Shown piece by piece: positions 3,727-13,864 of a stretch of DNA of 64,000 bases. How positions within the stretch are numbered: position 1 is the first letter of the stretch; each line of letters opens with the position of its first letter. Both the position numbers and the translations under genes were made by a program. This DNA comes from a virus (Duplodnaviria > Caudoviricetes), in the IMG/VR virus record IMGVR_UViG_3300033475_000013, positions 1-64,000 of that record, one strand, 5' to 3'. Below the pieces are notes generated by a model. It did not search any database. It was not told where the DNA came from and worked only from the letters and a program-made list of their open reading frames with translations.

Positions 3727-4155
3727 TTAGGGCTTGGAATATCTACAACTATTCTCACATTTTGGGTTACTATCACAATACATAAAAGGGCAACCATTTA
3801 ATGATGTTGCTTTCGTTTTATAGAATTCATCAGACTCTATTTCCTTCTTAAGCTTAAGAAAACGTTCATATTTTTCAAGCCTTCTTTTAGTCAGAAGTTC
3901 AGGGTTTAACAATTCAAGAATTTTATCCGAAGAATCATAATTACTTATGACCTGAATTATCTCTCTATTAGGCGATTCACCTATAAAAATAATCAAATCA
4001 TCTTCTGATATTCTTCTTTTTATTTTGTTAATGAATACAAAATCTTCATAAGAATTATCAGATTCTCCAAACGCACCATGACCATTTGTCAATATCCTAC
4101 TATGGATTAATCCTAAAGTTTTAGCTTCTTTTTTAGTTATTATTTGTGCTTTCAT
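3727..4155 (-). CDS. Hypothetical protein
   Basis: ORF in operon. Confidence 0.6.
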   Translation of the reverse strand: MKAQIITKKEAKTLGLIHSRILTNGHGAFGESDNSYEDFVFINKIKRRISEDDLIIFIGESPNREIIQVISNYDSSDKILELLNPELLTKRRLEKYERFLKLKKEIESDEFYKTKATSLNGCPFMYCDSNPKCENSCRYSKP

Positions 4156-4373
4156 GGTTCAACTGTTTCGATTAGTTCAAGAAATCTTTTACATTCACTG
4201 ATTTGAATATCAATTTTATTCCATTGATCATTGACTAAAGCAATTTGTTCAAGCTCAGATATTCTCTTTTCAATATCTCTTTTAAGGGATGATTTGAAGT
4301 CGTCACGACCTTGTATGTAATCAAGTCCTTTATGGAGATCTATCCAAGCTTGTTTAGCTTTCTCCTTTGTCAT
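4152..4373 (-). CDS. Hypothetical protein
   Basis: ORF with 4-nt overlap to the next gene. Confidence 0.55.
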   Translation of the reverse strand: MTKEKAKQAWIDLHKGLDYIQGRDDFKSSLKRDIEKRISELEQIALVNDQWNKIDIQISECKRFLELIETVEP

Positions 4374-4456
4374 AATAAAAATCGGGTTAACCCCACACCC
4401 GAAGGCCTAAACTGTGCGATACTTCGCTGTACTGGACTCTACGTCACATGACGCTA
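4374..4456 (-). ncRNA. 5-nt-periodic (NGY-NN)9 array A plus 3' hairpin; candidate vrRNA-like guide
   Basis: Minus strand: cGTca tGTga cGTag aGTcc aGTac aGCga aGTat cGCac aGTtt aGGCCT, then hairpin CGGGT-GTGGGGTTA-ACCCG and a T-rich tail. Confidence 0.8.
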
Positions 4457-5026
4457 TTATAATAATTTTATAGTCGTTAACTCAAATCGTCCGAACATAC
4501 CATTATTTGAAGGCCTAAATGAGCCTATCCCAACATATTTACCAGCATACTCAATGATTTGTTCGATAGTCTGAATAGTGATTGAGTCCTCGTCAATTGA
4601 AAGCGTGAATTCAGCGCTCCATTCAGACCATTTTGGACGAACAACGATTACACGAGCCTTTACATTCCTATTGACAGCAGATCGTTTATCGATGCTATCA
4701 AAATCTGGCAATAATATTTGGTCAGGCGAAACCATAAACATAGCTGCCACTATCTGTTTCATGGATTTTGAACGGCCACCAACTTTAGCTTTCACGTAAG
4801 AACCTGCTGCAATTAATGCCCCTCTAATTTGTTCAGATGGTATAAAACATTGTTCATCGGAATTTCGATAGCAATGATATTCCGCACGAACAAGATCCTC
4901 TTTTACTAACTCTGGACGTTCATGAATTGGGCCTCGTTGCTTCTCCCATTGCTCAAGCTTTTGATCATCCATACGGTGTTGCATGTATGGTGTAATTCCT
5001 TTAATTTTTACTTTGTATATTTTCAT
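4457..5026 (-). CDS. Stand-alone RAMP/Cas7-like (RRM-fold) protein, Vipr-like
   Basis: N-terminal strand YKVKIKGITPYMQH; FIPSEQIRGAL (RAMP IPxxxxxGxl motif); RPKWSEWSAEFTL; C-terminal Gly-rich loop GKYVGIGSFRPSNNGMFGRF. No other cas genes nearby. Confidence 0.75.
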   Translation of the reverse strand: MKIYKVKIKGITPYMQHRMDDQKLEQWEKQRGPIHERPELVKEDLVRAEYHCYRNSDEQCFIPSEQIRGALIAAGSYVKAKVGGRSKSMKQIVAAMFMVSPDQILLPDFDSIDKRSAVNRNVKARVIVVRPKWSEWSAEFTLSIDEDSITIQTIEQIIEYAGKYVGIGSFRPSNNGMFGRFELTTIKLL

Positions 5027-5033
5027 AAAATTG

Positions 5034-5115
5034 GATCACTTTACCCCACAATGATCAGAGGCCATTACTTGACTACACTTCGCCCCACATCGCTTGGCTT
5101 TGCAACGCATCAGCA
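5034..5115 (-). ncRNA. 5-nt-periodic (NGY-NN)9 array B plus 3' hairpin; candidate vrRNA-like guide
   Basis: Minus strand: tGCgt tGCaa aGCca aGCga tGTgg gGCga aGTgt aGTca aGTaa tGGCCT, then hairpin GATCAT-TGTGGGGTAAA-GTGATC. Confidence 0.8.
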
Positions 5116-5142
5116 TAAGTTTTTAAAGTTTAACTGAGTCTT

Positions 5143-5829
5143 TTAAAATTTAATCAATGCCCATTGCATTCCGATACCTACACTTGGTCTATTCTGAATC
5201 GGATCATAACCAACGTAAGGCCCTATACTGAATCGCTTGTCCTTGTAATCCTTCATCAGCACACTGGTGCTATTGGTGATTTTTGCATTCGGATTACCAA
5301 GCATTCCAGAGCCATACAATCGTTCTTTACCGAACAACCACTTTTTCTTTGTACTCATGGTCATTGTGATCACGTCAGAGTAGGTGTATTTATATGGCGC
5401 ATGTAAACTGTCATAGATAGTAGCACGGAAAGCCAGGTATCCGTCCGACACATTCAAGTGCGTAGAATCCATGGACCTTCCAGTACTATCTGTGTAGTGG
5501 TTGTGCGTGATATAAGAATTGCCAGAGCCATGAGCAGTAAATCCTGCCTGCATCACAGCCTTAACTGATTTGAGTTCGATGCCCATCTGCTCGATTTGCC
5601 TAGCTAAGACAGGATAATTTTTTTCAAGGTCTTTTGCTTTCATTTCAGCAGCAAACTTCTCTGCCACCAGTTGACCATTCTTTGTTTTGTGATAATGTAT
5701 AGAGTCGTTCTTCTCAGCAACAACAGATGAGAGTGATTGTTTATCATCCTGAAGGACGTTGACGCGGTGCAGAAGGAAAGCAATGATGAGAATTGCTATG
5801 ATAGTGATTATGATGACGTACTTGTTCAT
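5143..5829 (-). CDS. Membrane-anchored protein, putative spanin-like lysis protein
   Basis: N-terminal TM helix, coiled coil, beta-rich region, C-terminal FSIGPYVGY...GIGMQWALIKF. Confidence 0.45.
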   Translation of the reverse strand: MNKYVIIITIIAILIIAFLLHRVNVLQDDKQSLSSVVAEKNDSIHYHKTKNGQLVAEKFAAEMKAKDLEKNYPVLARQIEQMGIELKSVKAVMQAGFTAHGSGNSYITHNHYTDSTGRSMDSTHLNVSDGYLAFRATIYDSLHAPYKYTYSDVITMTMSTKKKWLFGKERLYGSGMLGNPNAKITNSTSVLMKDYKDKRFSIGPYVGYDPIQNRPSVGIGMQWALIKF

Positions 5830-12878: not shown

Positions 12879-13864
12879 GCTCTGATTCCAGTTATTTCAA
12901 AAAACTTATCTGAGTCAAAACCAGGCAAAGAAGTAAATACAGATTTCTTTTTATCCGTTAAATTACCCCAAAGATTTGCCCATGCTTCTTTGATTGGAAT
13001 AGTTTTTAAATAACCTTCTGTAGTTTCGTGCTTAGGATTTTTTTCTTTTTCTTCAGCACTCATTAATGAAGATGGAACCCAAATTGTAAAGTCAAGATTA
13101 GACATGATTTGGCAAGCTTCGTGATTCTCCCAATCACGCACATTTATATCAGTCAATTTATCAAATAAAATCAATTTAGGGTTTGATTCGGTGCAGAATG
13201 CGCCCGAATTCCTGTAGCCCGAATTACTGTCGCCCGAATTCCTGTCGCCCGAATTCCAGTTGCCCGAATTCCAGTTGCCCGAATTCCTGTTGCCCGAATT
13301 CCTGTCGCCCGAATTACTGTCGCCCGAATTCCAGTTGCCCGAATTCCAGTTGCCCGAATTCCTGTTGCCCGAATTACTGTTGCCCGAATTCCAGTTGCCC
13401 GAATTCCAGTTGCCCGAATTACTGTCGCCCGAATTACTGTCGCCCGAATTCCAGTTGCCCGAATTCCTGTCGCCCGAATTCCTGTTGCCCGAATTACTGT
13501 TGCCCGAATTACTGTCGCCCGAATTCCAGTTGCCCGAATTAGAATGACCGGTATTGTCCTTTCCTTCATTGGCTAAAAATAAAACTTCAGACCACTCAAT
13601 GATGCGAATGATATGAAGCTTATTAGTACAAACTTTAGAATCTTCATCGTGTGTTTGTGTTTCTCCTAACGCTTCAACTTCGCAGACAATATTTTTTGGA
13701 TCAAAATCGTAATACGAAAAACAATCAGAAGCTTTCAAACAAAAATGTAAGCCTGAACGACAAATTGTTATTGGAAGAGGCACTTCAAAAGTCTTGCCGA
13801 CTTCGTATTTCATATTGTTTTGTTTCGCGGTAAAATCTGGATTGAATACTTTATAACCTTTCAT
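12875..13864 (-). CDS. Phage pentapeptide-repeat protein ([ND][WRS]NSG repeats)
   Basis: N-terminal GYKVF...YEVGK...GLHFC domain; 23 xxNSG repeats; C-terminal domain. Confidence 0.85.
   Translation of the reverse strand: MKGYKVFNPDFTAKQNNMKYEVGKTFEVPLPITICRSGLHFCLKASDCFSYYDFDPKNIVCEVEALGETQTHDEDSKVCTNKLHIIRIIEWSEVLFLANEGKDNTGHSNSGNWNSGDSNSGNSNSGNRNSGDRNSGNWNSGDSNSGDSNSGNWNSGNWNSGNSNSGNRNSGNWNSGNWNSGDSNSGDRNSGNRNSGNWNSGNWNSGDRNSGDSNSGYRNSGAFCTESNPKLILFDKLTDINVRDWENHEACQIMSNLDFTIWVPSSLMSAEEKEKNPKHETTEGYLKTIPIKEAWANLWGNLTDKKKSVFTSLPGFDSDKFFEITGIRA
13202..13546 (-). repeat. 23 x 15-bp coding tandem repeat
   Basis: Unit (A/G)AC-(TGG/AGG/AGT)-AAT-TCG-GGC on the minus strand; 345 bp equals 23 units. 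Confidence 0.95.

What the first reader, a model, noticed from the sequence alone, without database searches (positions are those of the whole stretch)
5059..5115. Array B (upstream, in the 5' leader of the RAMP gene)
Seen, minus strand: tGC-GT tGC-AA aGC-CA aGC-GA tGT-GG gGC-GA aGT-GT aGT-CA aGT-AA tGG-CCT. Plus-strand C falls at 5063, 5068 ... 5108. One more TGC sits 6 nt further upstream. It has the same unit number (9) as array A but unrelated variable bases, as expected for two guides with different targets. Predicted gapped target under the NN-skip model: GTnAAnCAnGAnGGnGAnGTnCAnAA. Read in frame this is V-[KN]-[QH]-[DE]-G-[DE]-V-[QH]-[KN] (inference).
Basis: partly seen in the sequence, partly recalled or inferred. 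Interest (0 to 1): 0.78.

Follow-up and report, generated by a model that had tools for sequence, protein, structure and literature searches.

The report
VIPR guide RNA upstream of vipr
The five-base periodic tract is real and is the repeat part of a guide RNA of a VIPR system, a CRISPR-like phage DNA-silencing system published in 2026, so it is a new example of a known kind and its target is still unknown.

Summary
Observation confirmed. On the minus strand, 5109..5065 holds nine consecutive n-G-Y-N-N pentamers. A second nine-unit tract lies at 4453..4409. The two tracts flank one 189-aa gene (4457..5026). No shuffle of the window gave a run longer than 7.

The gene is a sequence homologue of the solved SUSP1 Vipr protein (PDB 36pp, E 2.7e-10, full length). 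Its model matches Cas7 folds. All 20 related loci examined (49-80% protein identity) carry such tracts beside the gene on the gene's strand. G-Y is kept, N-N is unrelated between loci, and unit number runs from 8 to 32.

Array B is followed by a conserved tail: a hairpin supported by compensatory changes, then a U-run that abuts the vipr ATG.

This clade has N-G-Y where SUSP1 has G-G-Y. First-position G is 14% here against 77% in Felixounaviruses. One of the two G1-reading residues of SUSP1 Vipr is replaced (D177 to S). The VIPR paper already lists such "YNNNG" repeats.

No natural target was found for array B, no conserved accessory gene was seen, and no RNA data exist. The scan has noted VIPR on other DNA before (159 notes, at least 135 genomes).

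Verdict: a genuine but ordinary new member of a known kind.

The parts
5065..5109 (-). vrRNA-B repeat tract: nine n-G-Y-N-N pentamers (NN = GT AA CA GA GG GA GT CA AA)
   Evidence: Arrays in the same position occur in close relatives L082-L086.
5110..5115 (-). Irregular 6-nt T-G-C-containing unit just upstream of the tract. It may be a degenerate first unit or the 5' end region. Function unknown.
   Evidence: No conserved 5' element was seen in relatives.
5027..5064 (-). vrRNA-B 3' tail: conserved G-G-C-C-U, a 5-7 bp hairpin with a conserved G-rich loop, then a U-run ending at the vipr ATG. A pseudoknot between the loop Gs and the C-C-U is possible.
   Evidence: alignment A1. RNAalifold, 4 of 5 pairs have compensatory double changes; the hairpin appears in the MFE fold.
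4457..5026 (-). vipr gene (189 aa), a RAMP/Cas7-like Vipr protein
   Evidence: PDB 36pp_D 'SUSP1 Vipr protein', E 2.7e-10, residues 1-183 against 1-187; phrog_4652; the AF2 model matches Cas7 of type VII and type III complexes; 693 homologues.
4409..4453 (-). vrRNA-A repeat tract: nine n-G-Y-N-N pentamers, starting 4 nt after the vipr stop codon
4378..4408 (-). vrRNA-A 3' tail. It follows the same plan as tail B with a different stem sequence. Its U-run lies 3 nt before the ATG of ORF 4152..4373.

Best explanation
Array B is the repeat (guide) tract of a VIPR RNA (vrRNA), encoded immediately upstream of the phage's vipr gene. Array A is a second vrRNA immediately downstream. The mechanism below is taken from the SUSP1 system and is inferred here, not shown. 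One Vipr protomer binds each pentamer and the protomers form a helical filament. The filament buries the scaffold bases (here G-Y; in SUSP1 G-G-Y) and displays the two variable bases. The displayed dinucleotides pair with double-stranded DNA while skipping every third target base. The bound complex silences transcription of a rival mobile element. For array B the code would be the nine (perhaps effectively eight) dinucleotides GT AA CA GA GG GA GT CA (AA), each separated by one free base. The conserved hairpin and U-run tail would cap the 3' end. The following are shown here: the tracts, their conservation pattern, the homology of the protein, and the tail hairpin. The following are inferred: transcription and processing, filament formation, the 1-nt-skip rule for this N-G-Y clade, and the silencing function.
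For: (1) Two 9-unit runs flank one gene, and shuffles never exceed 7.
(2) The protein matches the solved SUSP1 Vipr over its full length. The residues that read G2 and Y3 are kept: R138 is R, W178 is F/Y (still aromatic), R179 is R, E71 is E (with residue roles from 10.64898/2026.04.26.720927).
(3) The predicted fold matches Cas7 subunits, Foldseek E 2e-6.
(4) All 14 IMG/VR relatives and all 6 close metagenomic relatives for which DNA was returned have arrays next to the gene on its strand. This gives 64 arrays and 786 units. NN is near-random, about 0.1 bit per position (measured on the 56 arrays/694 units), while G-Y holds.
(5) Close relatives (73-80% identity) have an array in the same position as B, with 8-16 units, unrelated NN and the same tail.
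(6) The tail hairpin shows covariation, which parallels the invariant structured tail of SUSP1 vrRNAs.
(7) There is no self-target in the 77.9-kb genome, as the paper reports for natural vrRNAs.
(8) The published Methods list 'YNNNG' repeats as an alternative vrRNA consensus.
(9) In this clade, an 8-unit guide of L014 matches 16/16 informative bases in an ORF next to vipr in L086. All 7 skipped bases fall at codon position 3, and 0 of 500 shuffled guides do as well. This supports the 1-nt-skip rule for N-G-Y guides.
Against: No target for array B or A was identified. There were no exact hits in viral contigs. The 32 exact hits in genome contigs and 33 in metagenome contigs are about what amino-acid composition predicts (about 30 for genome contigs). 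They are scattered over unrelated genes. Scans with 8 of 9 units gave only scattered hits.
No conserved accessory (vap) gene lies next to vipr in this clade.
G1 of the published G-G-Y scaffold is absent, so the binding mode is extrapolated.
The 5' end and promoter of the RNA are undefined.
Confidence: 0.85

Rival explanations
1. Array B is mainly a cis-acting leader. Vipr polymerises on the pentamers just upstream of its own start codon and feeds back on vipr termination or translation. This would resemble TRAP binding its 11 spaced triplets in the trp leader. On this view the tract is not, or not only, a trans-acting guide.
For: The U-run of the tail ends 0 nt before the vipr ATG in the window, and 0-8 nt before it in L082-L086. 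vipr must therefore be translated from RNA that either contains the array or starts within a few bases of its tail. No target was found.
Against: Array A and the downstream arrays of relatives have the same build but sit after vipr. NN is hypervariable, which a pure protein-binding site does not need. In SUSP1 the upstream vrRNA is a functional guide. The two roles are not mutually exclusive.
Confidence: 0.08
2. Array B is a defunct or decoy vrRNA. It is still bound by Vipr but has no current target, or it serves only to titrate a rival's Vipr.
For: No target was found in about 600 Gb of genomes, the metagenome collection or IMG/VR. Solo and decoy vrRNAs are described for SUSP1 satellites (abstract of 10.64898/2026.10.15.759431).
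Against: All nine units and the tail are intact. Failure to find targets is expected when the host and its mobile elements are unsampled and only exact matching was possible.
Confidence: 0.05
3. The periodicity is a DNA-level or chance feature (iterons, low-complexity sequence, a coding artefact of the plus-strand ORF 4922..5137) with no RNA role.
For: A 71-aa plus-strand ORF overlaps the tract. No RNA data exist.
Against: A period of 5 is incompatible with coding. The feature is strand-specific and co-oriented with vipr in 21 of 21 loci while its sequence is not conserved. Shuffles do not reproduce it.
Confidence: 0.02

Closest known systems
Type II VIPR of Escherichia phage SUSP1 and other Felixounaviruses (Vipr, vap1, four vrRNAs; bioRxiv 10.64898/2026.04.26.720920, .720927, 10.64898/2026.10.15.759431; PDB 36pp)
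   Same: The Vipr protein is homologous (about 29% identity, full length). vrRNAs lie on both sides of vipr on its strand. Pentamer repeats number 9-16 or more, with a conserved scaffold and hypervariable NN. A conserved structured 3' tail follows the repeats. There is no CRISPR array and no cas genes. I confirmed four G-G-T-N-N arrays around wV8 gp096 and BPS15Q2_59 myself.
   Different: The scaffold is N-G-Y, not G-G-Y (position-1 G is 14% against 77%). The G-loop reads G-I/V-G-S-F/Y-R-P instead of G-V-G-D-W-R-P. The tail is short, about 35 nt, and ends at the next ATG. There is no vap1 homologue and no conserved neighbour. The source is a soil/rhizosphere phage of unknown host with 38% GC.
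VIPR systems with alternative repeat consensus ('NNNGG, YNNNG, NNNNG'; Methods of 10.64898/2026.04.26.720920)
   Same: Read in the paper's Y-N-N-G-G register, the window's units are Y-N-N-N-G. That is one of the listed alternatives.
   Different: The text I could read does not say which VIPR type or clade carries YNNNG, and gives no residue-level reason for it. I could not assign this locus to one of the seven types.
Class 1 CRISPR Cas7-crRNA backbone (type III Csm3/Cmr4, type VII Cas7)
   Same: Same RAMP fold. One protomer binds per fixed RNA step, and a thumb interrupts pairing periodically.
   Different: The step is 5 nt with 2 pairing bases, not 6 nt with 5. The guide is hard-coded in the genome, not acquired. 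There are no repeat-spacer array, Cas6, Cas10 or Cas11.
TRAP and its spaced-triplet RNA leader in Bacillus
   Same: Periodic short motifs separated by 2-3 free bases lie in a leader next to a start codon, and each motif would be bound by one protein subunit.
   Different: The protein fold is unrelated. TRAP forms a closed 11-mer ring, whereas unit number here varies from 8 to 32. The free bases in TRAP sites carry no code.

Membership tests
VIPR system (Vipr + vrRNA) | A Vipr protein: a minimal RAMP homologous to SUSP1 Vipr, with an RRM core, G-loop and thumb | tested here: met
   phmmer against PDB hits 36pp_D 'SUSP1 Vipr protein', E 2.7e-10, residues 1-183 against 1-187. H17, R138 and R179 are conserved. 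The AF2 model (pLDDT 72.5) has Cas7 of type VII and type III as top Foldseek hits, E 2e-6.
VIPR system (Vipr + vrRNA) | Tandem pentamer repeats (at least 4, typically 9-16) next to vipr, with a conserved GGY-type scaffold alternating with NN | tested here: met
   Nine units on each side of the gene. The scaffold is N-G-Y rather than G-G-Y, which equals the 'YNNNG' variant named in the paper.
VIPR system (Vipr + vrRNA) | NN positions hypervariable among relatives while the scaffold is retained | tested here: met
   56 arrays and 694 units in 15 loci give 0.10 bit at each of positions 4 and 5. Six closer relatives have arrays in the same position with unrelated NN.
VIPR system (Vipr + vrRNA) | An invariant structured 3' tail after the repeat tract (a pseudoknot in the SUSP1 clade) | tested here: met
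   Ten tails were aligned (A1). The hairpin has 4 of 5 pairs with compensatory changes. The pseudoknot (loop Gs with the upstream C-C-U) is only suggested, by one one-sided change in L003, so it is inconclusive.
VIPR system (Vipr + vrRNA) | Not associated with a CRISPR array or other cas genes | tested here: met
   No CRISPR-like repeats in the window. The neighbours have no cas or PADLOC hits.
VIPR system (Vipr + vrRNA) | An accessory vap gene beside vipr (typical, not universal) | tested here: not met
   None of the seven neighbouring window ORFs tested (four downstream, three upstream of vipr) is conserved next to vipr in any of 22 related loci; the only hit is one weak match, w128 to L013. 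No similarity to wV8 gp095. The paper notes stand-alone vipr genes.
VIPR system (Vipr + vrRNA) | vrRNA expressed as a small RNA of about 100 nt that co-purifies with Vipr | not testable with these tools
   No RNA run holds this sequence.
VIPR system (Vipr + vrRNA) | Natural targets obey the 1-nt-skip (NNx) rule, often phased to codons | tested here: inconclusive
   No target above chance was found for array B or A. One guide of relative L014 matches L086 at 16/16 with all skips at wobble positions.
TRAP-type RNA-binding attenuation | A TRAP-fold 11-mer ring protein and (G/U)AG triplet repeats | tested here: not met
   The protein has a RAMP fold. The motif is G-Y, and the copy number varies from 8 to 32.

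The most novel reading that the evidence does not exclude
The upstream vrRNA may have two roles. Its tail ends at the vipr start codon here and within 8 nt in every close relative. The array could therefore be both the guide and the 5' leader of the vipr message, so that Vipr filament assembly on its own leader sets vipr expression (guide-coupled autoregulation). Separately, this clade may define a minimal two-base (G-Y) scaffold that arose by loss of one of the two G1-reading residues. Across four clades, G1 is kept only where both H17 and D177 are present (SUSP1/wV8 and LES-phi2). G1 is free where D177 is S (this clade) or H17 is N (phiHSIC).
Probability: 0.25. Interest if true: 0.5.

Novelty: new member of a known kind. 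Interest (0 to 1): 0.3.

Why it matters
VIPR is a months-old discovery, and natural diversity is what will define its rules. This locus adds a compact soil-phage clade with at least 693 homologues. Its features are a two-base scaffold, a very short tail, no partner gene, and guides on both sides of vipr. It also gives a simple residue-level hypothesis for why the first G is dispensable (D177 to S), which could be tested by mutagenesis and could be useful when engineering shorter or altered scaffolds. It does not change the picture of what VIPR is.

Tried and rejected
(1) My first reading, before I found the VIPR papers, was a TRAP-like or generic Cas7-like RNP. It was replaced.

(2) Rfam gave nothing at the window locus or at the Felixounavirus loci.

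(3) I tested a 'contiguous code' idea: that the free position 1 tracks the target's skipped base, so that N4-N5-n1 reads as codons. Stop triplets are not depleted (38 observed against 41.9 +/- 4.5 in permutations). Exact-pattern hits match position 1 at chance level, at most 5 of 8. Rejected for lack of support.

(4) Target searches:
- Window and own genome, up to 3 mismatches: none.
- 14 related phage genomes: at control level.
- Exact A and B patterns in viral contigs: none.
- Exact B pattern in genome and metagenome collections: 32 + 33 hits, about the number that amino-acid composition predicts for genome contigs (about 30). Ten of them fall on one NeuB-type synthase motif, mostly in related Phycisphaerae, so these are few independent events.
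- 8-of-9-unit scans: 29 + 13 scattered hits, mostly in high-GC phages.
None was accepted as a target.

(5) Expression: no RNA holder is listed for this stretch.

(6) The promoter/terminator consensus scan gave nothing usable. A sigma-70-like site lies upstream of array A only, and the number of hits was below the shuffle mean.

(7) Assignment to one of the seven VIPR types was not possible from the text held.

(8) DNA could not be fetched for P0007's contigs.

Full report
OBSERVATION

Read on the minus strand, the 116-nt gap between ORF 5143..5829 and ORF 4457..5026 contains nine consecutive pentamers of the form n-G-Y-N-N (5109..5065). Before the tract lies an irregular 6-nt T-G-C unit (5115..5110). 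After it lies tGG-CC (5064..5060).

A scan of both strands for G-Y at period 5 found only two runs of nine in 64 kb. One is this tract. The other lies at 4453..4409, which starts 4 nt after the stop codon of the same gene. The next longest run is 5. In 100 shuffles the maximum was 7. The feature is real, non-random and paired around one gene.

WHAT THE GENE IS

The 189-aa product has no Pfam hit and belongs to phrog_4652, of unknown function.

By sequence alone it matches PDB 36pp chain D, 'SUSP1 Vipr protein', over its full length with E 2.7e-10. tblastn finds about 29%-identical homologues in 120 Felixounavirus-type and other phage records.

An AlphaFold model built on 35 homologues (pLDDT 72.5) has Cas7 subunits of type VII and type III CRISPR complexes as best Foldseek matches (E about 2e-6, TM about 0.47).

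A note left on this window gave the name VIPR, which led me to three 2026 preprints:
[quoted passage not shown] These consist of Vipr plus vrRNAs of 9-16 G-G-Y/N-N pentamers with an invariant 3' tail. They recognise double-stranded DNA through the NN bases with one target base skipped per unit, and they silence transcription of rival phages and satellites.
- Cryo-EM structures. One protomer binds per repeat. G1 is read by H17 and D177, G2 by R138 and W178, and Y3 by E71, M72, R179 and others.
- The SUSP1-satellite conflict.

COMPARATIVE TEST

Neither happens.

- In wV8 and BPS15Q2 the homologous gene is flanked by four arrays of 10-18 G-G-T-N-N units.
- All 14 IMG/VR relatives (49-70% identity) carry arrays beside the gene and on its strand. 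So do all 6 closer metagenomic relatives for which DNA was returned (73-80% identity; array scan).
- The first 15 loci give 56 arrays and 694 units. Positions 4 and 5 carry 0.10 bit each and position 1 carries 0.16 bit. Y is T in 88% of units.
- With the six closer relatives, counting runs of at least 6 units, the total is 64 arrays and 786 units.
- The close relatives L082-L086 have an array at the same place as array B. These have 8-16 units, completely different NN, and the same downstream tail.

THE TAIL

Ten tails of this type align well (A1). Each has a conserved G-G-C-C-U, a hairpin whose loop is a conserved G-rich nonamer, and then a U-run.

RNAalifold recovers the hairpin, and 4 of 5 pairs show compensatory double changes. 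Array B's own stem differs from the consensus stem at every position, yet it still pairs.

The loop Gs could pair with the C-C-U upstream to form an H-type pseudoknot, as in SUSP1. Only one one-sided change (in L003) speaks to this, so I leave it open.

In all nine G-G-C-C tails that directly follow a called array, the last NN before the tail is A/T only. The ninth unit may therefore be semi-constant rather than part of the guide.

The U-run ends 0-8 nt before the next ATG in every case, and 0 nt before vipr in the window. vipr must therefore be translated from RNA that reads through or starts at the tail. This is the basis for the autoregulation rival.

HOW THIS CLADE DIFFERS FROM SUSP1

Position 1 is G in 77% of 104 Felixounavirus units but in only 14% of units here.

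In the protein alignment (A2), H17, R138 and R179 are invariant. The G-loop D-W of the Felixounavirus proteins (SUSP1) is S-F/Y throughout this clade. D177 is one of the two residues that hydrogen-bond G1.

Two further clades fit the pattern. LES-phi2 keeps both H17 and D and has G-G-C-N-N arrays. phiHSIC has N at position 17 and arrays with a free first base, although those arrays are short and lie inside an annotated ORF. This is a four-clade correlation, not a proof.

The discovery paper already lists 'YNNNG' among alternative repeat forms, so the variant as such is in print.

TARGETS

Neither guide matches its own genome, as expected for vrRNAs.

Exact gapped searches found nothing in IMG/VR. 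Array B gave 32 hits in about 600 Gb of genomes and 33 in metagenomes. My estimate from amino-acid frequencies for an in-frame nine-codon class is about 30 for genome contigs, so these numbers are chance-level.

The hits fall in many unrelated genes. One cluster of ten sits on a NeuB-type synthase motif, mostly in related Phycisphaerae. I record it as a lead only.

Scans with eight of nine units gave scattered hits. Related phage genomes gave control-level hits. The target is unknown.

As a check of the rule in this clade, I scanned 61 guides (runs of at least 8 units) against the sequences in hand. One 8-unit guide of L014 matches 16/16 informative bases in an ORF just upstream of vipr in L086. 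The match is antisense, and all seven skipped bases fall at codon position 3. None of 500 shuffled guides reached 16.

OTHER POINTS

No accessory gene is conserved beside vipr. The window has no CRISPR array. The genome is a complete 77.9-kb virus record with terminal repeats. DNA holders are soil and rhizosphere metagenomes, and no RNA run is listed.

The scan has met VIPR many times on other DNA: 159 notes in at least 135 genomes.

VERDICT

Array B is the repeat tract of a vrRNA of a VIPR system. It is a new member of a recently published kind. It has a two-base scaffold that the paper mentions, and a plausible structural reason for that scaffold that the text I could read does not give. Target, expression and any leader function remain to be shown.

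Noticed in passing
L014:3683-3722 versus L086:500-522: [quoted passage not shown] All 7 skipped bases fall at codon position 3, and 0 of 500 shuffled guides reach this score. It is a likely natural inter-phage target within this clade.
   Followed up: partly
Genome-contig loci L017, L018, L026, L028, L032, L043, L045, L047 and metagenome loci L066, L079: Ten of the 65 exact hits of array B's gapped pattern fall on the N-terminal NeuB-type (nonulosonic acid synthase) motif, and roughly half of these are in Phycisphaerae-type MAGs. The overall hit count is at chance level, so this is a lead only.
   Followed up: partly
L001:3759-3816 and L001:5152-5209 (Escherichia phage wV8): The 'DR_4' repeat_region features annotated in the wV8 record coincide with the conserved tails that follow two of its four G-G-T-N-N arrays. 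In other words, the record annotates vrRNA tails as plain direct repeats.
   Followed up: partly
L131:3151-3190 and L131:3360-3394 (Listonella phage phiHSIC): Short n-G-C-N-N tracts of 8 and 7 units lie downstream of the Vipr homologue ORF22, inside the annotated opposite-strand ORF21. The homologue has N instead of H at position 17. These are possible unrecognised vrRNAs, and ORF21 may be a doubtful ORF call.
   Followed up: no
window 13202-13540: A 15-nt tandem repeat of 22.6 copies at 91% identity. Its period is a multiple of three, so it is probably a pentapeptide repeat in a coding region.
   Followed up: no
window 4374-4377 and 5027; same positions in L003, L005, L082-L086: Every tail's U-run ends 0-8 nt before the ATG of the next gene. 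No Shine-Dalgarno-like sequence was noticed in that short gap, though I ran no search for one. The genes after vrRNAs therefore depend on read-through or on processing at the tail.
   Followed up: partly
L011:2119-2473 and L016:3099-3518: In two relatives, 6-9 arrays follow each other head to tail. They are separated only by one T-rich pentamer that stays in register. This resembles the 'staggered' arrays mentioned in the VIPR paper (fig. S18 legend).
   Followed up: no
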